This document shows, piece after piece, positions 4,527-22,280 of a DNA stretch of 23,613 bases (position 1 is its first letter; every line of letters begins with the position of its first letter). The notes under the pieces were generated by a model that searched no databases, had not been told where the DNA came from, and worked only from the letters and a program-made list of their open reading frames with translations. The DNA is from a virus (taxonomy: Duplodnaviria > Heunggongvirae > Uroviricota > Caudoviricetes): IMG/VR virus record IMGVR_UViG_2617270938_000001; one strand, given 5' to 3'. The position numbers and the translations under genes are program-made.

Positions 4527-5087
4527 TATCGCGTCCTCAACAATGAATTTTGTGATGCGGTGCCTGGTGCCTCCAGGTGACGTTAACCAGTTAACAATTA
4601 ACGCCGGATACAGAGAATCCACCCATAACACTGTTTTTGGTTTTAACTGTTCCGCGTGCGCTCAGCCGCATTCACCACATCACAAAATTCACTTTAAAAA
4701 GGGCGGCAGAGCAGTCACGGAGTAAAACTGATACCGCCAAACGTCACCAGAAAATTGATAACAGAGGGCGTTGCAGCGGGGTTGTCACTTAAGCGTATGG
4801 TCAACCTGACAACCCGGTGTCCTCAACGGGGAAGGAATACCCCCGCCATACTTACCGCCGCGCCATTTCGCGGAGTGCCACAACCGGAAGCGCACGGTCG
4901 ACGAAAATTTAACGACAGGCTATCTATGAACCAACAACTTCGCCGTGTGCTTTCGCGTTATGCCCTGACTTTTCAGGGAAATATCCTTTCAGTAAACTGT
5001 CAGTGCCGGATGCTCACCCGTGTCCGGCGCACGCACTCCACCTCACCCGTGGAGAACTCCTTAATCACCAACCCTCAGGAGGGTGAA

Positions 5088-10731: not shown

Positions 10732-10942
10732 AAACGGTTTGCGGGAAAAGGAGAGTTAAGTAGAATTGCAGCGGGTGCTTGAGGCTATCTGTCTCAGGCA
10801 TGAACACCAAAAGGCAGATAGAGAAAAGCCCCAGTTAACATTACGCGTCCGGCAAGACGCTTAACATTAATCTGAGGCCATATCTATGCTCTACACACGT
10901 AGGTTAGCCTCTTACGTGCCGAAAGGCAAGGAGAAGCAGGCT

Positions 10943-11098
10943 ATGAAGCAGCAAAAGGCGATGCTAATCGCCCTGATCGTCATCTGTTTAACCGTCATTG
11001 TGACGGCACTGGTAACGAGGAAAGACCTCTGCGAGGTACGAATCCGAACCGGCCAGACGGAGGTCGCTGTCTTCACAGCTTACGAACCTGAGGAGTAA
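10943..11098 (+). CDS. hokD: Hok/Gef-family type I toxin (51 aa; matches my recollection of E. coli HokD/RelF)
   Basis: MKQQKAMLIALIVICLTVIVTALVTRKDLCEVRIRTGQTEVAVFTAYEPEE. AGGAGA SD 8 nt upstream. An in-frame upstream extension from ATG 10886 gives a 70-aa mok-like ORF. Confidence 0.9.
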   Translation: MKQQKAMLIALIVICLTVIVTALVTRKDLCEVRIRTGQTEVAVFTAYEPEE

Positions 11099-15469: not shown

Positions 15470-15540
15470 GGCCCTTTAGCTCAGTGGTGAGAGCGAGCTA
15501 AAGGGCCGGGTCGCTGGTTCAAATCCAGCAAGGGCCACCA
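15470..15540 (+). tRNA. tRNA-Ile-like element with aberrant anticodon arm (probable tRNA pseudogene)
   Basis: Acceptor GGCCCTT/AAGGGCC, D-arm GCTC-AGTGGTGA-GAGC, T-arm GCTGG-TTCAAAT-CCAGC and 3' ACCA are intact. The anticodon-arm region is 12 nt (AGCTAAAGGGCC) instead of 17 and is perfectly complementary to the element's own 5' end. Confidence 0.5.
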
Positions 15541-15549
15541 TATCACATA

Positions 15550-15626
15550 CCACCATTAGCTCATCGGGATAGAGCGCCAGCCTTCGAAGCTGGTTGCGCG
15601 GGGTTCGAGTTCTCGATGGCGGTCCA
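15550..15626 (+). tRNA. tRNA-Arg (anticodon TCG)-like; candidate tRNA with imperfect stems
   Basis: D-arm GCTC-ATCGGGATA-GAGC; anticodon arm CCAGC-CTTCGAA-GCTGG; T-loop TTCGAGT; 3' CCA. One A-C mismatch in the acceptor stem and two G-T pairs in the T-stem. Confidence 0.45.
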
Positions 15627-15640
15627 TTTATCGGTATTCT

Positions 15641-15700
15641 GCGTTGTTAGCTCAGCCGGACAGAGCAATTGCCTTCTAAGCAGCTGTGGTTGCACTCCTG
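15641..15700 (+). pseudogene. tRNA-Arg (anticodon TCT)-like 5' fragment lacking a recognisable T-arm and 3' acceptor
   Basis: GCGTTGT-TA-GCTC-AGCCGGACA-GAGC-A-ATTGC-CTTCTAA-GCAGC resembles tRNA-Arg(UCU) through the anticodon loop, but the downstream sequence has no GGTTCGAATCC-like T-arm. Confidence 0.4.
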
Positions 15701-15882
15701 TTGTTTCTGGTGGTGATGGTGGACTTCAGCAGCCGGATAATGTCGGTGCTGTCTGATGGTGTTTTGGTGGCGGGTGTGTGGTTGTTGCTTTCCCGTTGCT
15801 GAAAAAGAAAGCATCAGGCGATTAGCAGGGTATCAGTTACCCGTTGAAATTTTTAAATACCTCACAATTCCACAGCTTGATG

Positions 15883-16080
15883 ATTGTCTGGCTGCCGGAG
15901 AATTTGTTAAAAATAACATCGCATGGTGAATCCCCCTCAGCGGCGGGGCATCTGGCAAAGTGTATGATCCAGAGAACATGCAAATTCAGTAGACAGGCTG
16001 AATTTACCGGGAGGCCCCTGGCACCATGCGACAGACAGAAATTAGGCTATACTTCAGCCCCTCTCCGGAGGGGCTTTTCT
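15883..16080 (+). ncRNA. candidate noncoding RNA element A (about 198 nt), paralog of element B, ending in intrinsic terminator AGCCCCTC-TCCG-GAGGGGCT + TTTT
   Basis: Shares blocks with 16352-16545 (ATTGTCTGGC, TTTGTTAAAAA, CGCATGGTGAATCCCCCT, GAATTnACCGGGAGGCnCCnGGCACCATGC, identical terminator hairpin). The overlapping ORFs are on different strands in the two copies, arguing against a shared protein. Confidence 0.45.
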
Positions 16081-16268
16081 GTGCAGGATGTGTCACAGTT
16101 TCCTGAATTCTGAGTACTGTCCTGTTACTCAGGGTGCTATATTTTCTGACGTGATGAAAGTCTGCCGGAAGGCGGAACGTATCGGAAATGACCCAGTAGA
16201 GAAAACGTTGACTCAGATACCGATGCTGAGTTACCGGGAAACCGGCATCACATGACCGCTATCCTTCC

Positions 16269-16292
16269 AGGCTCGCTCCGGCGGGCCTTTTT
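16269..16292 (+). terminator. intrinsic terminator between the two repeat elements (GGCTCGC-TCCG-GCGGGCC + TTTTT)
   Basis: GC-rich stem with tetraloop followed by a T-run; about 30 bp upstream lie TAAAAT and CATAAT -10-like hexamers preceding element B. Confidence 0.5.
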
Positions 16293-16351
16293 ACTGCAGA
16301 AAACAGTTTTCCCGTAAAATGCCACGTTGCTCATAATTCAGGCTGGCGATT

Positions 16352-16545
16352 ATTGTCTGGCCGGCGGGAAGTTTGTTAAAAAATTTCGCATGGTGAATCC
16401 CCCTGTGCGGAGGGGTAATCAGCGAGTAGGTATATGGGATAATCGCGGATTCAGGTGCTGGTACTGAATTCACCGGGAGGCACCCGGCACCATGCAATGG
16501 CACATAGCGCCACTCTCCAGCCCCTCTCCGGAGGGGCTGTTTATA
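16352..16545 (+). ncRNA. candidate noncoding RNA element B (about 194 nt), paralog of element A, same terminator hairpin (16519-16538)
   Basis: See element A. The conserved 5' block, the GGTGAATCCCCCT block, the GGGAGGC block and the terminator are retained while the middle has diverged. Confidence 0.45.
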
Positions 16546-16573
16546 TTGATTTTGTCAGATGTGAGTAAACTCC

Positions 16574-17358: not shown

Positions 17359-17600
17359 TACTACGTCATCGTACTGGCCCGGCATTCCAGGCCATAAAAG
17401 ACGGTCTGGCAGTGGGACTAAATGCACTGACGCTGACGGATATTACCAAAAATGCAACGTATGGCGTTGAGATAGAAAGTCTGGTGCTGGAGATAAATAC
17501 ACCGGCATCATCATAAAAAGTGAGCCAGTCAAATGGAAGGTATCGTTAAACTCACCGGTAGTGTCAGTGGAGCGTCTGAGACGCTTGCATGAGTTATCAG

Positions 17601-17633
17601 AGCCATCAGTAGTTAACTGGTGGCTTTTTTATT
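17601..17633 (+). terminator. intrinsic terminator-like hairpin just upstream of the holin (AGCCATCAG-tagttaa-CTGGTGGCT + TTTTTTATT)
   Basis: 9-bp stem with one G-T pair followed by a T-run; promoter-like TTGAGA ... GATAAAT about 100-130 bp upstream. Confidence 0.5.
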
Positions 17634-17665: not shown

Positions 17666-17881
17666 ATGGACCAGATGGAAAAAATCACAACAGGTGTGTC
17701 ATACACCACGTCAGCGGTGGGAACGGGCTACTGGTTCCTGCAGTTGCTGGACAGGGTTTCCCCGTCTCAGTGGGCGGCAATAGGCGTGCTGGGGAGTCTG
17801 CTGTTTGGGCTGCTGACATATCTGACTAACCTGTATTTCAAAATCAGAGAGGACCGTCGTAAGGCGGCACGGGGAGAGTAA
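17666..17881 (+). CDS. class II holin, phage 21 S21-type pinholin (71 aa) with dual-start motif
   Basis: [71 protein letters not shown], close to S21 as I recall it; Met1 and Met4 give the dual start. The track ORF 17561..17881 includes upstream run-in. Confidence 0.85.
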
Positions 17882-17885
17882 TTCA

Positions 17886-18236
17886 ATGACTCAAAACTAT
17901 GAACTGATTGTGAAAGGGATCCGCAATTTTGAGAATAAAGTTACGGTAACTTTAGCGTTACGGGACAAAAAACGCTTTGACGGTGAAATTTTTGACCTGG
18001 ACATCTCGCTGGACCGTGTTGAAGGTGCCGCGCTGGAGTTTTATGAGGCAGCAGCCAGAATGAGCATCAGACAGGTCTTCCTGGATGTTGCTGCCGGGTT
18101 ATGTGAAGGGGATGAGCAGTCGCCGGAAAAGCGCCCCGTAATTTTAGAGGCGCAGAATGTATGGATAACCTACAAAGGAAAGCTACCGGGAAGAATTACT
18201 GGTTCTCTGAAGACTCCTCCGGAATCACAACCTTAA
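17886..18236 (+). CDS. hypothetical protein (116 aa) embedded between holin and endolysin (YdfR-like position)
   Basis: GGGGAGAG SD; starts 5 nt after the holin stop. Some lambdoid prophages carry a gene at this position, but I cannot verify the family. Confidence 0.55.
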   Translation: MTQNYELIVKGIRNFENKVTVTLALRDKKRFDGEIFDLDISLDRVEGAALEFYEAAARMSIRQVFLDVAAGLCEGDEQSPEKRPVILEAQNVWITYKGKLPGRITGSLKTPPESQP

Positions 18237-18299: not shown

Positions 18300-18833
18300 A
18301 TGAACACCAAAATCAAATACGGCCTGTCGGCTGCCGTTCTGGCGCTGATTGCCGCTGGTGCGCCTGCGCCTGACATTCTCGACCAGTTTCTGGATGAAAA
18401 GGAAGGTAACCACACCACGGCATACCGTGATGGCGCGGGTATCTGGACCATCTGCCGCGGTGCCATCCTGGTGGATGGCAAACCTGTCGTTCCGGGCATG
18501 AAGTTGTCGAAGGAAAAATGCGACCGGGTTAACGCCATTGAGCGTGATAAGGCGCTGGCATGGGTGGAGAAAAACATCAAAGTGCCATTGAGCGAACCCC
18601 AGAAAGCGGGGATCGCGTCATTCTGTCCGTACAACATTGGTCCCGGTAAGTGTTTCCCGTCGACGTTTTATAAACGAATTAATGCAGGTGATCGCAGGGG
18701 AGCGTGTGAGGCGATTCGCTGGTGGATTAAGGACGGTGGCAGAGACTGCCGTATTCGTTCAAACAACTGCTACGGTCAGGTATCCCGTCGTGACCAGGAG
18801 AGCGCGCTGGCGTGCTGGGGTATCGACAGATAA
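18300..18833 (+). CDS. endolysin, lysozyme (T4-lysozyme / GH24-like) with N-terminal SAR (signal-anchor-release) domain
   Basis: 177 aa. Gly/Ala-rich weakly hydrophobic N-terminus (GLSAAVLALIAAGAPAP) followed by a lysozyme-like core (EGNHTTAYRDGAGIWTICRG ...), as in phage 21 R. Follows the pinholin. Confidence 0.85.
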   Translation: MNTKIKYGLSAAVLALIAAGAPAPDILDQFLDEKEGNHTTAYRDGAGIWTICRGAILVDGKPVVPGMKLSKEKCDRVNAIERDKALAWVEKNIKVPLSEPQKAGIASFCPYNIGPGKCFPSTFYKRINAGDRRGACEAIRWWIKDGGRDCRIRSNNCYGQVSRRDQESALACWGIDR

Positions 18834-18922
18834 GCAGAATATTTTGCTGAAAAATGCGGTTTGCTTACACGGACGGATAACACGAAATCCTGCGAACTGA
18901 CAAAAACTAAGTGAATAAAAGT

Positions 18923-18962
18923 AAAAACCCCGTTTGTTGGCTGCAAGCGGGGTTTTGTGTTT
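18923..18962 (+). terminator. intrinsic terminator-like hairpin inside the lysis cassette (AAAACCCCG ... CGGGGTTTT + GTGTTT)
   Basis: 9-bp stem with a 15-nt loop and U-rich 3' side, between the endolysin and the small TM ORF / Rz. Confidence 0.45.
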
Positions 18963-18992
18963 CCTGACTCTGGAAAAGTCAAAGGAGAAAGT

Positions 18993-19130
18993 GTGTTTGA
19001 TTTTAGCAAACTGATTCGGGAGATTCGAGTGATGGCTGAAAAATTATCCACCTGGAAGTTCATTCTTATCTGGCTGGTGTTTGTGATTATGGCCTCCGGT
19101 TATTTCATCGGTCAGATACGCTGGTGGTGA
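18993..19130 (+). CDS. small membrane protein (45 aa) immediately upstream of Rz; not in the ORF track
   Basis: GTG start with strong SD AAGGAG 5 nt upstream: (M)FDFSKLIREIRVMAEKLSTWKFILIWLVFVIMASGYFIGQIRWW. One TM segment; stop 1 nt before the Rz ATG. Confidence 0.4.
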   Translation: MFDFSKLIREIRVMAEKLSTWKFILIWLVFVIMASGYFIGQIRWW

Positions 19131-19131
19131 A

Positions 19132-19497
19132 ATGAACCGCGTACTGTGCGTGGTCATCATTGCCCTGCTGGTGGCCTGTGGTGCGCTTAGTCTGGGGCTG
19201 AATCATTACCGTGATAACGCCATAACCTACAAAGAGCAGCGCGATAAAAAAGTCAGTGAGCTGGAGCAGGCAAATGCAACCATTACTGATATGCAGCAGC
19301 GCCAGCGTGATGTTGCTGTACTTGATGCCAGATACTCGAGGGAATTAGCCGATGCGAGAGCTGAAAATGAAACTCTGCGCGCTGACGTTGCCGCTGGTCG
19401 TAAGCGCCTGCGGATCAACGCCACCTGCCCCGGTACCCGAACACGGCACTGGTCGGCGTGCAGGTGGACTCGGAACAGTTCGGCAGCCAGCAGGTGA
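19132..19497 (+). CDS. i-spanin Rz, N-terminal ~90 aa only; C-terminus replaced by out-of-frame J sequence (likely pseudogene); no Rz1 found
   Basis: [93 protein letters not shown] closely parallels lambda Rz; similarity is lost at about 19400-19420 where the J frame opens. Confidence 0.7.
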
Positions 19498-22280
19498 GCC
19501 GTAATTATCATCTTCGCGGGCGCATTCTGCAGGTGCCGTCGAACTATAACCCGCAGACGCGGCAATACAGCGGTATCTGGGACGGAACGTTTAAGCCAGC
19601 ATACAGCAACAACATGGCCTGGTGTCTGTGGGATATGCTGACCCATCCGCGCTACGGCATGGGGAAGCGTCTCGGTGCGGCGGATGTGGACAAATGGGCG
19701 CTGTATGTCATCGGCCAGAATTGCGACCAGTCGGTGCCGGATGGCTTTGGTGGCACGGAGCCGCGCATCACCTGTAATGCCTACCTGACCACACAGCGCA
19801 AGGCGTGGGATGTTCTCAGTGATTTCTGCTCGGCGATGCGCTGTATGCCGGTATGGAACGGGCAGACGCTGACGTTCGTGCAGGACCGACCGTCGGATAA
19901 GGTGTGGACCTATAACCGCAGTAATGTGGTGATGCCGGATGATGGCGCGCCGTTCCGCTACAGCTTCAGTGCCCTGAAGGACCGTCATAATGCCGTTGAG
20001 GTGAACTGGATTGACCCGGATAACGGCTGGGAGACGGCGACAGAGCTTGTTGAAGATACGCAGGCCATTGCCCGTTACGGTCGTAACGTCACGAAGATAG
20101 ATGCCTTTGGCTGTACCAGCCGGGGGCAGGCACATCGCGCCGGGCTGTGGCTGATTAAAACAGAACTGCTGGAAACGCAGACCGTGGACTTCAGCGTGGG
20201 TGCTGAAGGGCTTCGCCATGTGCCGGGCGATGTCATTGAAATCTGTGATGATGACTATGCCGGTATCAGCACCGGTGGTCGCGTGCTGGCGGTGAACAGC
20301 CAGACCCGGACGCTGACGCTCGACCGTGAAATCACGCTGCCATCCTCCGGTACCACGCTGATAAGCCTGGTTGACGGTCAGGGTAATCCGGTCAGCGTGG
20401 AGGTCCAGTCCGTCACCGACGGCGTGAAGGTGAAAGTGAGCCGTGTTCCTGACGGCGTTGCCGGATACAGCGTGTGGGGGCTGAAGCTGCCGACGCTGCG
20501 CCAGCGCCTGTTCCGCTGCGTGAGTATCCGTGAGAACGACGACGGCACGTATGCCATCACCGCCGTGCAGCATGTACCGGAAAAAGAAGCCATCGTGGAT
20601 AACGGGGCGCACTTTGACGGCGACCAGAGCGGCACGGTGAATGGTGTCACGCCGCCAGCGGTGCAGCATCTGACCGCAGAAGTCACCGCAGACAGCGGGG
20701 AATACCAGGTGCTGGCCCGCTGGGACACGCCGAAGGTGGTGAAGGGCGTGAGCTTCCTGCTTCGCCTGACCGTGGCAGCGGATGACGGCAGTGAGCGGCT
20801 GGTCAGCACGGCCCGGACGACGGAAACCACTTACCGCTTCACACAACTGGCTCTGGGGAACTACAGGCTGACAGTCCGGGCAGTAAATGCGTGGGGGCAG
20901 CAGGGCGATCCGGCGTCGGTATCGTTCCGGATTGCCGCACCGGCAGCGCCGTCGCGGATTGAGCTGACGCCGGGCTATTTTCAGATAACCGCCACGCCGC
21001 ATCTTGCGGTTTATGATCCGACGGTACAGTTTGAGTTCTGGTTCTCGGAAAAGCGGATTGCGGATATCAGGCAGGTTGAAACCACAGCACGCTATCTTGG
21101 GACGGCGCTGTACTGGATAGCCGCCAGTATCAATATCAGGCCGGGTCATAATTATTATTTTTACGTTCGCAGTGTGAACACCGTTGGCAAATCGGCATTC
21201 GTGGAGGCTGTTGGTCAGCCGAGTGATGACGCATCCGGCTATCTGGATTTTTTCAAAGGCGAGATAGGGAAAACCCATCTGGCTCAGGAGCTGTGGACGC
21301 AGATTGATAACGGTCAGCTTGCGCCTGACCTGGCTGAAATCAGAACATCCATTACGGATGTCAGCAATGAAATCACACAGACCGTCAATAAGAAACTGGA
21401 AGACCAGAGTGCGGCAATTCAGCAGATACAGAAGGTTCAGGTTGATACAAATAATAACCTGAACAGCATGTGGGCTGTGAAGCTGCAGCAGATGCAGGAC
21501 GGACGCCTTTATATCGCGGGTATTGGTGCCGGTATTGAGAACACCCCTGACGGCATGCAGAGTCAGGTGCTGCTGGCGGCAGACAGGATTGCGATGATTA
21601 ATCCTGCGAATGGCAACACAAAGCCGATGTTTGTTGGGCAGGGCGATCAGATATTCATGAACGACGTGTTCCTGAAACGCCTGACGGCTCCCACCATTAC
21701 CAGCGGCGGTAATCCTCCGGTATTTTCCCTGACACCGGACGGGCGGCTGACGGCGAAAAATGCCGATATCAGCGGTAACGTGAATGCGAACTCCGGGACG
21801 CTCAACAACGTCACGATTAACGAGAACTGTCGGGTTCTGGGAAAACTGTCTGCGAACCAGATTGAAGGCGATCTCGTTAAAACAGTGGGCAAAGCTTTCC
21901 CCCGGGACTCCCGTGCACCGGAGCGGTGGCCATCAGGGACCATTACCGTCAGGGTTTATGACGATCAGCCGTTTGACCGGCAGATTGTTATTCCCGCGGT
22001 GGCGTTTCGTGGCGCTAAACATGAGCGGGAGAATAACGATATTTATTCGTCATGCCGCCTGATGGTGAAGAAAAACGGTGCTGAAATTTATAACCGTACC
22101 GCGCTGGATAATACGCTGGTTTATACAGGTGTTATTGATATGCCTGCTGGTCGCGGTCACATGACGCTGGAGTTTTCGGTATCAGCGTGGCTGGTAAATG
22201 ACTGGTATCCCACAGCCAGTATCAGTGATTTGCTGGTTGTGGTGATGAAGAAATCCACAGCAGGTATCACGATTAGCTGA
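19404..22280 (+). CDS. J: tail-tip host specificity protein J, 5'-truncated (C-terminal ~940-960 codons; no upstream J sequence, start codon or promoter of its own)
   Basis: Long high-GC ORF with the size, position (immediately before lom and stf) and motifs expected of lambda J's C-terminal two-thirds. The frame is open from 19404; the track ORF begins at GTG 19458. Head and tail-shaft genes are absent upstream. Confidence 0.8.

What the first reader, a model, noticed from the sequence alone, without database searches (positions are those of the whole stretch)
18837..19130. Insertion inside the lysis cassette: terminator plus an unannotated 45-aa membrane protein between endolysin and Rz
In phage 21-type cassettes S, R and Rz/Rz1 are contiguous. 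Here about 300 bp separate the endolysin stop from Rz and contain a terminator-like hairpin (18923-18962) and a hand-translated ORF (GTG 18993, strong AAGGAG SD) encoding a single-TM 45-aa peptide that ends 1 nt before the Rz ATG. It could be a lysis modulator or a new small membrane toxin/antitoxin, and it is below the ORF track's size cutoff.
Basis: seen in the sequence. Interest (0 to 1): 0.5.

Follow-up and report, generated by a model that had tools for sequence, protein, structure and literature searches.

The report
Antisense-guarded small phage membrane peptide cassette
The gap between the lysozyme and Rz genes holds a real, widely conserved 45-residue phage membrane peptide that travels between phages as a ~220-bp cassette together with a two-way terminator hairpin and, on the opposite strand, what looks like a conserved promoter for a ~75-nt antisense RNA covering its ribosome-binding site; no expression or function has been measured.

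Summary
There are 298 bp between the lysozyme stop (18833) and the Rz ATG (19132). They hold a strong hairpin (18924-18956) and a GTG ORF (18993-19130) with an AAGGAG Shine-Dalgarno sequence.

The ORF is a real gene. It belongs to PHROG 6632 (function unknown), shows dN/dS of 0.03-0.3, and has homologues from Escherichia to Pseudomonas. It is not specific to lysis. The same unit sits between endolysin and spanin genes of four unrelated endolysin families, between baseplate genes, and between the tail genes I and J. In each case it has the same orientation as the late genes.

The hairpin always travels with the ORF, carries an A-run and a T-run, and shows compensatory changes. A second hairpin occludes the SD. 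No sense-strand promoter was found.

New here: codons 3-6 of all 28 distinct family sequences spell TGnTAnnnT on the opposite strand, an extended -10 promoter. Synonymous sites hold it in place, and Ser-to-Ile or Thr replacements keep the A-N-C pattern.

My reading is a terminator-gated late gene guarded by a cis-antisense RNA. It resembles a type I toxin-antitoxin pair but lacks its own toxin promoter. The RNA, the peptide's toxicity and its role are all inferred. Interest is moderate to high, as a new variant of a known kind.

The parts
18300..18833 (+). Flank: SAR-type lysozyme R, phage 21/Qin rrrQ type. This is the upstream neighbour of the insertion.
   Evidence: annotated 'lysozyme'/rrrQ in identical E. 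coli records.
18834..18912 (+). Part A: conserved spacer after R, of unknown role. It is also present where other small ORFs follow the hairpin.
   Evidence: No promoter-like site and no Rfam hit.
18913..18923 (.). A-rich run 5' of the hairpin (AAAAGTAAAAA). On the minus strand it reads as the U-run of the predicted antisense RNA terminator.
   Evidence: An AAAGCRAAA-type A-tract is present in all loci.
18924..18956 (.). Hairpin 1: GC-rich stem-loop that looks like an intrinsic terminator in both directions.
   Evidence: scan.: + strand -21.6 kcal/mol with z = -4.85; minus strand -14.2 kcal/mol with z = -2.6; 12 pairs, 6 with compensatory double changes, 95% of cells paired.
18957..18966 (+). 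T-rich run after hairpin 1 (GTGTTTCCTG follows GGGGTTTT). This is the U-tract of the sense-strand terminator.
18960..18988 (+). Hairpin 2: a leader stem-loop whose 3' arm contains the Shine-Dalgarno sequence.
   Evidence: window fold -7.6 kcal/mol, not significant alone. (family helix: 5 pairs, 4 with double changes, 85% of cells paired).
18982..18987 (+). Shine-Dalgarno sequence AAGGAG, 5 nt before the GTG.
18993..19130 (+). 45-aa peptide gene (phrog_6632 family): VFDFSKLIREIRVMAEKLSTWKFILIWLVFVIMASGYFIGQIRWW. It has a GTG start, and a TGA stop 1 nt before the Rz ATG.
   Evidence: Homologues. dN/dS.
19000..19008 (-). Predicted extended -10 promoter element TGCTAAAAT, lying on codons 3-6 of the peptide gene.
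19023..19028 (-). Weak -35-like hexamer TCGAAT, 17 nt upstream of the -10. It rests on the near-invariant rare Arg codon CGA (R12).
   Evidence: CGA in 27 of 29 sequences. (P(CGA|Arg) = 0.065)..
18920..18994 (-). Predicted cis-antisense RNA of about 75 nt. It starts opposite the start codon, carries CUCCUU opposite the SD, and ends at hairpin 1 plus a U-run.
   Evidence: fold: 5' stem-loop, A-rich linker, terminator; z = -4.2.. No Rfam family matches. The RNA has not been observed.
19018..19034 (+). Possible internal start: GGGAG (19018-19022) 9 nt before the invariant ATG of codon 14 (19032-19034). It would give a 32-aa form.
   Evidence: Some annotators call the 32-aa form (P0022, P0023).
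19132..19434 (+). Flank: Rz i-spanin gene, with the embedded Rz1 start at 19352. It is truncated here and joined to a J-like tail gene.

Best explanation
The gap holds one copy of a mobile cassette of about 220 bp that lives inside the late operons of temperate phages.

What the tools show:
- The cassette has a fixed order: an A-tract, GC-rich hairpin 1, a T-tract, a short leader whose hairpin 2 pairs with the Shine-Dalgarno sequence, a GTG or TTG start, and a 42-53-residue peptide gene under purifying selection.
- No sigma-70-like promoter precedes it on the sense strand.
- The opposite strand of codons 3-6 carries an invariant extended -10 motif, TGnTAnnnT.
- The next late gene starts within a few bases of the peptide's stop codon.

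How I infer it works:
- In the lysogen, hairpin 1 stops stray sense transcription.
- The antisense promoter makes a ~75-nt RNA that starts opposite the start codon, is complementary to the SD and leader, and terminates at the same hairpin read the other way. Any leaked peptide mRNA is thereby silenced.
- After induction, Q-modified RNA polymerase reads through hairpin 1. This floods the locus with sense RNA and probably occludes the antisense promoter.
- The peptide is then made at a modest level, limited by the GTG start and the occluded SD.
- It inserts N-in into the inner membrane late in infection.
- Ribosomes finishing it reinitiate on Rz.

The peptide itself is most likely a mildly toxic, membrane-perturbing accessory factor that tunes late events such as lysis timing. 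It is not a core lysis protein, and this last step is the weakest part of the explanation.
For: Real gene:
- Full-length match to phrog_6632, E = 6e-30.
- tblastn hits of 100% in H-19B, about 98% in Stx phages, 60-69% in Salmonella phages and 50% in Pseudomonas phages.
- 85 clusters in the first search and 73 representatives at the 50% identity level, all small stand-alone proteins.
- dN/dS of 0.03-0.30 with dS from 0.4 up to saturation.
- Second codon positions of L7, I8 and L11 are invariant T while the first and third positions vary.

Mobile unit in late operons:
- Endolysins of four unrelated families are followed by the unit and then an Rz-like spanin. Tail assembly protein I is followed by the unit and then J. 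It also lies after a tail fibre gene, between baseplate V-like and W-like genes, between tail chaperone T and a probable tape measure gene, and near the portal gene.
- Of 68 IMG/VR contigs with the same leader, 44 or 45 have a lysis context, 13 have a baseplate context, and the rest have other contexts or are cut by a contig end.
- Qin lacks the unit.

Hairpins:
- Hairpin 1 is present in every locus.
- Of 17 pairs tested, 10 show compensatory change, 92.5% of cells are paired, 0 of 500 shuffles reach the observed covariation score, and the slid-partner controls score far lower.

No sense promoter:
- None was found within 200 nt upstream in any of 14 loci.

Antisense promoter:
- TGnTAnnnT sits at the same place in 28 of 28 distinct sequences.
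- The -15, -14, -12, -11 and -7 positions are invariant, while -13 and -10 to -8 vary.
- Where Ser5 is replaced, it becomes Ile (ATC) or Thr (ACC), which keeps the A-N-C pattern.
- Codons that are rare in Pseudomonas (TTT, ATT, CGA) are retained there.
- Given the protein sequence, the chance of the motif is 0.008-0.25 per clade. The product over 15 clades is 10^-14.6 if the clades are independent.
- First ORFs of other peptide families behind the same leader also carry a minus-strand -10-like hexamer at +5 to +13. Later ORFs of the arrays do not carry a good one.

Predicted RNA:
- The predicted antisense RNAs fold like small RNAs, with z between -3 and -5.

Q antitermination:
- SPN3UB and SEN34 each carry an annotated Q-type antiterminator. 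H-19B's Q is from my own knowledge and was not seen.
- Another terminator-bearing moron sits inside the SEN34 late operon.
Against: - No RNA or protein data exist for this locus. The literature searches found nothing.
- The -35 element is weak (3 of 6 matches).
- A single TGnTAnnnT is common by chance: 29 occurrences in this window against about 38 expected. Everything therefore rests on its conservation in place, and the lineages compared are related.
- Hairpin 1 contains G-U pairs that weaken it on the minus strand (-14.2 against -21.6 kcal/mol).
- In L092/L093 the unit is not fed by a late operon and has a sense promoter-like site about 350 nt upstream.
- The window's hairpin 2 is not significant on its own (z = -0.7).
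- In this window the prophage is defective, so the cassette may no longer serve any purpose.
- Peptide toxicity and any effect on lysis are untested.
Confidence: 0.5

Rival explanations
1. It is plain late-operon cargo, a promoterless moron. The peptide is an ordinary accessory late protein. The hairpin is only an intercistronic terminator or mRNA-stability element. The minus-strand motif reflects some other constraint on the first codons, such as AU-rich, unstructured starts that favour translation. No antisense RNA is made.
For: - No expression data exist for any antisense RNA.
- The -35 is weak.
- TGnTAnnnT is frequent by chance.
- Hairpin 1 is stronger on the sense strand.
- The first codons of genes are commonly AU-rich (my own knowledge).
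- All other features fit simple cargo: purifying selection, late context, and close spacing to the next gene.
Against: - AU-richness does not explain invariant AGC, since AGT, TCT and TCA are more AU-rich.
- It does not explain the A-N-C pattern kept through Ser-to-Ile or Thr changes.
- It does not explain the invariant rare CGA codon at R12.
- It does not explain why exactly the informative promoter positions are fixed while the others vary.
- It does not explain the conserved A-tract 5' of the hairpin in every locus.
Confidence: 0.22
2. It is a classical type I toxin-antitoxin module that serves the prophage or the host, through post-segregational maintenance or abortive infection. A stable toxin mRNA is held silent by an unstable antisense RNA. 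Loss of the prophage, or transcription shut-off by an invading phage, releases the toxin.
For: - A small hydrophobic peptide plus a predicted cis-antisense RNA over its SD.
- A weak start codon and an occluded SD.
- Tandem arrays of small 1-TM peptides.
- L092 has units next to ParE/RelB and HicB modules, with a sense promoter-like site upstream.
- hok/sok-type loci occur in the same prophages: a sok match in this window and hokW-sokW in Sp5 (PMC8621323).
Against: - No sense promoter in 14 of 14 late-operon loci, and a terminator directly upstream, so no toxin mRNA pool is expected in the lysogen.
- Always co-oriented with and tightly joined to late genes.
- No homology to Hok, Ldr, Ibs, TisB, ShoB or other families in Pfam or NCBIfam, and no PADLOC match.
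- The most conserved part is the cytoplasmic N-terminus rather than the membrane span.
Confidence: 0.12
3. The antisense RNA is the main product. It would be a prophage small RNA expressed in the lysogen that acts in trans. One possible target is the near-identical leaders of related superinfecting phages, cutting their late mRNA between essential genes. This would be RNA-based exclusion of the kind reported for STnc6030 of BTP1. Host mRNAs could be another target, through its anti-SD stretch.
For: - On the minus strand the unit has the promoter-gene-terminator layout of a true moron.
- The leader is strongly conserved between unrelated phages and contexts (68 contigs).
- There is precedent for prophage antisense RNAs that exclude relatives, and for P22 sar and sas (review PMC12197685).
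Against: - The peptide is under purifying selection along its whole length, far beyond the RNA. The RNA therefore cannot be the only product.
- There is no evidence of expression.
- The stems and loops vary between phages, which limits cross-pairing.
Confidence: 0.1
4. It is a dedicated lysis-timing protein, an antiholin-like or holin-like factor with two starts (45-aa and 32-aa forms). It would act on the pinholin, the SAR endolysin or the spanin next to it.
For: - About two thirds of copies with this leader lie between an endolysin and Rz.
- An invariant ATG at codon 14 is preceded by GGAG 9 nt upstream, and Glu10 is almost always GAG. This recalls the dual starts of lambda S and S21 (my own knowledge).
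- Its stop is coupled to the Rz start.
Against: - The same peptide lies between baseplate genes, between tail I and J, near the portal gene and elsewhere.
- SEN34 keeps lysin and Rz contiguous and carries the peptide in the baseplate region.
- It accompanies four unrelated endolysin types, both SAR and soluble.
- Cassettes without it, such as Qin, are otherwise complete.
Confidence: 0.1

Closest known systems
Type I toxin-antitoxin systems with an antisense RNA over the toxin's 5' region (hok/sok, symE/SymR, aapA/IsoA), including hokW-sokW of prophage Sp5
   Same: - A small hydrophobic peptide.
- Its translation start lies under a short cis-encoded RNA that ends in an intrinsic terminator.
- Structured leader and weak translation signals.
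- Prophage location.
- hokW-sokW was shown to assist Sp5-mediated lysis and phage release (PMC8621323).
   Different: - No dedicated toxin promoter, and instead a terminator directly upstream.
- Embedded in and co-oriented with late operons.
- No sequence relation to any known toxin family.
- The charged N-terminus is cytoplasmic and conserved, and the membrane span is variable.
- Neither the RNA nor the toxicity has been demonstrated.
- The layout of symE/SymR and aapA/IsoA is from my own knowledge.
Phage P22 sar RNA and the ant gene
   Same: A 68-69-nt antisense RNA made from inside a phage operon. It pairs with the ribosome-binding region of the downstream gene and blocks its translation (review PMC12197685).
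   Different: - sar controls an antirepressor in the immI region, not a membrane peptide in the late operon.
- It is not a mobile cassette.
- There is no sequence similarity, and no Rfam match for this unit.
Morons of lambdoid phages (lambda bor and lom, HK97 gp15, the LT-II toxin operon downstream of the lysozyme gene)
   Same: - Extra DNA between genes that are adjacent in related phages (Qin has R-Rz contiguous).
- Accompanied by an intrinsic terminator.
- The same kinds of insertion sites, including the slot after the lysozyme gene that LT-II also uses (PMC3252337) and the chaperone/tape-measure slot.
   Different: - Classical morons carry a sense promoter upstream and a terminator downstream, and are expressed in the lysogen (my own knowledge; review PMC3594210 was listed but not read).
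- Here the terminator is upstream, there is no sense promoter, and the only promoter-like element points the other way.
PeSL cassettes of T4-type phages (promoter-early stem-loop units that flank small novel ORFs)
   Same: A conserved regulatory stem-loop module recurs in front of different small ORFs, which would allow modular shuffling. The same hairpin and leader precede pep45, p60, a 48-aa peptide and other ORFs.
   Different: - PeSLs are a terminator plus an early sense promoter in virulent T4-type phages (my own knowledge, not checked here).
- This unit occurs in temperate phages, has no sense promoter, and has an antisense one.
STnc6030 of Salmonella prophage BTP1
   Same: A prophage-encoded antisense RNA opposite a late gene that is made in the lysogen (PMC12197685).
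   Different: - STnc6030 is 786 nt and lies opposite the tailspike gene.
- It has a demonstrated exclusion phenotype.
- No small peptide is involved.

Membership tests
PHROG phrog_6632 (phage protein family of unknown function) | Full-length match to the family profile. | tested here: met
   E = 6.4e-30, residues 1-45 against profile positions 1-45 of 45. The Pseudomonas homologue also matches (E = 7e-23).
Type I toxin-antitoxin system | A small (<60 aa) hydrophobic, membrane-directed peptide. | tested here: met
   45 aa with one hydrophobic span, F23-I42. Membrane insertion itself was not tested.
Type I toxin-antitoxin system | An antisense RNA antitoxin complementary to the toxin mRNA. | tested here: inconclusive
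   A conserved minus-strand TGnTAnnnT, a terminator and an sRNA-like fold are present. No transcript data exist.
Type I toxin-antitoxin system | The toxin gene has its own promoter. | tested here: not met
   No sigma-70-like site within 200 nt upstream in 14 loci, and a terminator lies directly upstream. Exception: L092, with a promoter-like site about 350 nt upstream.
Type I toxin-antitoxin system | The peptide is toxic when expressed, and the RNA neutralises it. | not testable with these tools
   Needs expression experiments.
Known type I toxin families (Hok, Ldr, Ibs, TisB, ShoB, Zor, DinQ, Fst) | Sequence homology to a family model. | tested here: not met
   No hit in Pfam, NCBIfam, PADLOC or PDB sequences.
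Moron | Lies between genes that are adjacent in related phages. | tested here: met
   Qin has rrrQ-rzpQ overlapping. SEN34 has lysin-Rz contiguous and carries the unit elsewhere.
Moron | An independent transcription unit: a sense promoter upstream and a terminator downstream. | tested here: not met
   No sense promoter. The terminator is upstream, and the next gene starts -4 to +16 nt after the stop in most loci.
Intrinsic (Rho-independent) terminator | A GC-rich stem-loop followed by a U-tract, with conserved structure. | tested here: met
   Scan hit. z = -4.85. Covariation in 6 of 12 pairs. Termination activity itself was not tested.
Core lysis cassette component (holin, antiholin, endolysin or spanin) | Constant association with lysis genes, or homology to them. 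| tested here: not met
   Found in baseplate, tail and portal contexts. No PHROG lysis category.
Rfam RNA families | Match at the gathering score, on either strand. | tested here: not met
   Nothing at the gathering threshold in the region. Only sub-threshold terminator-like matches appear.

The most novel reading that the evidence does not exclude
A large and so far undescribed class of antisense-guarded small membrane peptides moves as ~220-bp cassettes between junctions of antiterminated late operons, in temperate phages of Enterobacterales and Pseudomonas. It would be present in roughly a quarter of complete E. coli genomes. One bidirectional hairpin would do two jobs. It would gate sense expression to the antiterminated lytic state, and it would terminate a constitutive ~75-nt antisense RNA. 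Because the leader is shared between phages, the resident RNA could also silence or cleave the late mRNA of related superinfecting phages.
Probability: 0.2. Interest if true: 0.75.

Novelty: new variant of a known kind. Interest (0 to 1): 0.6.

Why it matters
Small phage proteins are mostly unannotated and of unknown function. This one is common, including in Shiga-toxin phages such as H-19B, and sits in the operon that times toxin release and lysis.

If the antisense RNA is real, the unit shows a compact way for phages to carry a harmful late gene safely in a lysogen. A terminator gates the gene to antiterminated transcription, and an RNA guard covers any leak.

It would also add a family to the type I toxin-antitoxin-like systems. 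Searches that require a toxin promoter or intergenic tandem repeats would miss such a family.

The case also shows that strong 'protein' conservation at the N-terminus of a small ORF can come from an overlapping promoter on the other strand. That is a caution for small-ORF annotation. The predictions can be tested directly with a Northern blot and a few synonymous mutations.

Tried and rejected
- **Chance ORF or lone terminator.** Rejected because of homologues across genera and dN/dS of 0.03-0.3.
- **Known RNA family.** No Rfam hit at the gathering score. Only weak terminator-like matches (rimP leader, E = 0.0065) appear at the relaxed threshold.
- **Sense promoter in part A or in the leader.** None found by the scan or by my own scan of 14 loci.
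- **The standard antisense promoter first seen at 19115-19086 (CTGACC-18-CATAAT).** It is not conserved in relatives and was dropped in favour of the conserved extended -10 at 19000-19008.
- **Resemblance of the N-terminal helix to lambda CIII.** hhalign gives a probability of 0.1%. Rejected.
- **Named protein families.** Pfam, NCBIfam, PADLOC and PDB sequence searches returned nothing.
- **Literature searches.** I searched for the peptide, the WP accession, the PHROG id, hairpin and leader oligomers, small RNAs near the endolysin gene in O157, and the EcOnc sRNAs. There was no paper on this locus. The EcOnc27/STnc100 papers concern another part of the late region.
- **A second copy of the unit.** The covariance model R1 finds only one in the window and one in SEN34.
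- **Structure prediction.** Not run. A 45-residue helix-plus-membrane-span peptide would give no usable fold match.
Full report
**What is in the window**

The window is a Qin- or H-19B-like lambdoid prophage. It carries DicF, a sok element, tRNAs and two STnc100 copies.

Its lysis region reads as follows:
- an S21-type holin, 17666-17881;
- a YdfR-family ORF, 17886-18236;
- a lysozyme, 18300-18833;
- a 298-bp gap;
- an Rz homologue starting at 19132.

The terminator scan places it at 18924-18956 with 14 pairs. It folds at -21.6 kcal/mol with z = -4.85.

The gap also holds the GTG ORF at 18993-19130. AAGGAG lies 5 nt upstream of the start, and the stop lies 1 nt before the Rz ATG. In K-12 Qin the homologous genes are contiguous, so this is an insertion.

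Rz itself is cut at about 19434 and joined to a J-like tail gene. None of 5,426 complete E. coli genomes has this junction, so the prophage is defective.

**The ORF is a real gene, but not a lysis-specific one**

Identical or near-identical copies of the gap occur in many E. coli genomes. With the sensitive search, 1,337 of 5,426 complete genomes hold at least 80% of the gap, at identities down to about 77%, and part of these carry diverged variants of the unit rather than this peptide. Copies are sometimes annotated as hypothetical protein WP_000459345.1 and sometimes left unannotated.

The peptide matches PHROG 6632 (unknown function) over its full length. It has no match in Pfam, NCBIfam, PADLOC or the PDB.

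tblastn finds it in the following phages:
- phage H-19B, at 100% and unannotated there;
- many Stx phages;
- Salmonella phages SPN3UB and FSL SP-016, at 69%;
- Salmonella phage SEN34, at 60%;
- Pseudomonas phages, at 50%.

Profile searches add Citrobacter, Enterobacter, Klebsiella, Edwardsiella, Yersinia, Sodalis, Brenneria, Pantoea, Providencia and Pseudomonas. The hits are always small stand-alone proteins.

Across ten loci dN/dS is 0.03-0.30, while dS runs from 0.4 to saturation.

The contexts differ widely:
- endolysins of four unrelated families, then the peptide, then an Rz-like spanin;
- a baseplate V-like gene, then the peptide, then a W-like gene;
- tail assembly protein I, then the peptide, then J;
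- after a tail fibre gene;
- between tail chaperone T and a probable tape measure gene;
- next to the portal gene.

Among 68 IMG/VR contigs with the same leader, 44 or 45 are in a lysis context, 13 are between baseplate genes, and the rest are in other contexts or are cut by a contig end.

In E. coli the R-Rz slot is itself variable. Behind the same hairpin and leader lie other one-span peptides, alone or in arrays: a 60-aa, a 43-aa and a 28-aa form.

**The hairpin belongs to the gene**

Every locus has a GC-rich hairpin about 35-40 nt before the start codon, with an A-tract on its 5' side and a T-tract on its 3' side. A second small hairpin follows, and its 3' arm overlaps the SD.

The stem sequences differ between loci. 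On a 16-sequence alignment the results were as follows:
- 10 of 17 pairs show changes on both sides;
- 92.5% of cells are paired;
- no shuffle out of 500 reaches the observed covariation score;
- sliding the 3' partners by 1-3 columns destroys the signal.

A covariance model built from 20 units finds exactly one copy in the window (18913-19010, 94 bits) and exactly one in the whole SEN34 genome.

No sigma-70-like promoter precedes the ORF on the sense strand in any of 14 loci. The start codon is GTG or TTG in nearly all of the enterobacterial and Pseudomonas loci, though several distant homologues start with ATG. The next late gene begins within a few bases of the peptide's stop.

SPN3UB and SEN34 both carry an annotated Q-type antiterminator. 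SEN34 is therefore lambdoid in regulation even though its copy lies between baseplate genes. H-19B is also known to use Q, but that is from my own knowledge, because one search covered only its S-R-Rz stretch.

A terminator inside such an operon is harmless during lytic growth. SEN34 also has a classical terminator-bearing moron nearby.

**A conserved promoter on the other strand**

While testing the toxin-antitoxin idea I first found only scattered, non-conserved antisense promoter-like sites, including the window's CTGACC-18-CATAAT.

The most conserved nucleotides of the gene are codons 3-6, [G]AT-xxT-AGC-A[AR]. On the minus strand they read TGCTAAAAT, TGCTAATAT, TGCTAAGAT or TGCTATAGT. That is the extended -10 motif TGnTAnnnT.

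The evidence that this motif is held in place is as follows:
- It occupies the same position in all 19 distinct 5' segments from 74 loci.
- It is kept in six distant homologues fetched afterwards. There, Ser5 has become Ile (ATC) or Thr (ACC), which keeps the A-N-C pattern, and one reads TGGTATAAT.
- Over 29 sequences, the positions that correspond to -15, -14, -12, -11 and -7 are invariant. The exception is one marginal Ferruginibacter hit.
- Over the same sequences, -13 and -10 to -8 vary, and the synonymous sites of neighbouring codons vary freely.
- The rare Arg codon CGA at position 12 is kept in 27 of 29. It supplies the T and G of a weak -35 hexamer 17 nt upstream.
- Pseudomonas copies use TTT, ATT and CGA against the codon bias expected for that genus (my own knowledge of the bias).

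Given the amino-acid sequence, synonymous choice would produce the motif with probability 0.008-0.25 per clade. The product over 15 clades is 10^-14.6 if the clades are independent. That figure overstates the case, because the clades are related.

First ORFs of other peptide families behind the same leader also have a minus-strand -10-like hexamer at +5 to +13. Later ORFs in the arrays lack a good one.

In the window the elements lie as follows:
- the -35 at 19028-19023;
- TG at 19008-19007;
- the -10 at 19005-19000;
- the predicted start at about 18994.

The predicted RNA would carry CUCCUU opposite the SD and end at hairpin 1 plus a U-run near 18920, about 75 nt in all. Five such predicted RNAs fold into a 5' stem-loop, an A-rich linker and a terminator, with z between -3 and -5. 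This accounts for the conserved A-tract.

**Interpretation**

The shown facts fit a terminator-gated late gene guarded by a cis-antisense RNA.

In the lysogen, sense transcription would stop at hairpin 1, and the antisense RNA would cover any leaked SD. After induction, Q-modified polymerase would read through and the peptide would be made at a low level.

The peptide's charge distribution predicts an N-in single-pass orientation. Residues 1-22 carry five basic and three acidic residues, F23-I42 is hydrophobic, and the sequence ends in RWW.

These layers of restraint suggest the peptide is harmful to the cell. The closest functional precedent is hokW-sokW of Sp5, a type I pair that aids phage-mediated lysis (PMC8621323). 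The closest regulatory precedent is P22 sar and ant (PMC12197685).

It is not a classical type I toxin-antitoxin system, because it has no toxin promoter and no homology to known toxins. It is not a classical moron, because it has no sense promoter and its terminator is upstream. It is not a core lysis gene.

**Caveats**

- Nothing here shows that the RNA or the peptide is made. I found no paper on the locus.
- Hairpin 1 is weaker on the minus strand.
- In one genome (L092) three tandem units lie outside a late operon, each behind a repeat with a sense promoter-like site.
- An invariant ATG at codon 14 preceded by GGAG may give a second, 32-aa product.
- Part A of the gap (18834-18912) remains unexplained.

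**Verdict**

The finding is a new variant of known kinds, with features of both a type I toxin-antitoxin pair and a moron. It is widespread and directly testable. I put confidence in the proposed mechanism at about 0.5.

Noticed in passing
window 19132-19460: Rz and the embedded Rz1 (start 19352) are truncated at about 19434 and joined to an internal part of a lambda J-like tail gene (ORF 19458-22280). No complete E. coli genome out of 5,426 holds this junction. The prophage has therefore lost everything from the terminase genes to the tail genes and is defective.
   Followed up: partly
window 17886-18236: A YdfR-family ORF (116 aa) lies between the holin and the lysozyme, as in K-12 Qin. This is another accessory gene of unknown function inside the lysis cassette.
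   Followed up: no
window 15891-16084 and 16360-16548: Two copies of the STnc100 sRNA family lie upstream of the lysis genes. In O157 Stx2 phages this family overlaps the Hfq-binding sRNA EcOnc27 (PMC12711010). Rfam also finds two tRNAs (15470-15623), DicF (4701-4752, minus strand) and a sok element (10773-10948).
   Followed up: no
L008 2001-2500; L009 2001-2650; L010 2001-2500 (E. coli prophages): The R-Rz slot is a variable array. Behind the same hairpin and leader lie other one-span peptides: a 60-aa form (phrog_1115/4493), a 43-aa form (phrog_4906) and a 28-aa form ending in IRWW. Up to four occur in a row, and their N- and C-terminal parts look shuffled between families.
   Followed up: partly
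window 19018-19034: An invariant ATG at codon 14 of the peptide is preceded 9 nt upstream by GGGAG, and Glu10 is almost always GAG. This is a possible second start giving a 32-aa form, reminiscent of holin dual starts.
   Followed up: partly
L092 2100-4750: Three tandem copies of the hairpin-leader unit precede three different small ORFs. Each copy lies behind a ~700-bp repeat with a sense promoter-like site (TTTACA-17-TATCAT) and an extra terminator. The region sits among ParE/RelB and HicB modules near a small terminase gene.
   Followed up: partly
window 18834-18912: This is a conserved ~80-nt stretch between the lysozyme stop and the hairpin's A-tract. It is linked to R21-type lysozyme genes in E. 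coli and partly in Salmonella SPN3UB. It has no ORF, no promoter-like site and no Rfam match, and its role is unknown.
   Followed up: partly
window 19119-19134: The peptide ends ...CGC TGG TGG TGA A ATG. The RWW codons form a GGTGG Shine-Dalgarno-like run 5 nt before the Rz start. Many family members end in RWW, and the next gene usually starts -4 to +16 nt after the stop. The cassette may therefore carry the translation signal for the gene it displaced.
   Followed up: no
L100 (SEN34) 15605-16294: A classical moron lies just upstream of the baseplate gene that precedes the unit. It has a promoter-like site at 15812-15841, two small genes and a strong terminator at 16275-16294. This shows that terminators are tolerated inside this Q-dependent late operon.
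   Followed up: no
window 17599-17627: A strong terminator-like hairpin lies just upstream of the holin gene. It is probably the tR'-type terminator of the late promoter region.
   Followed up: no
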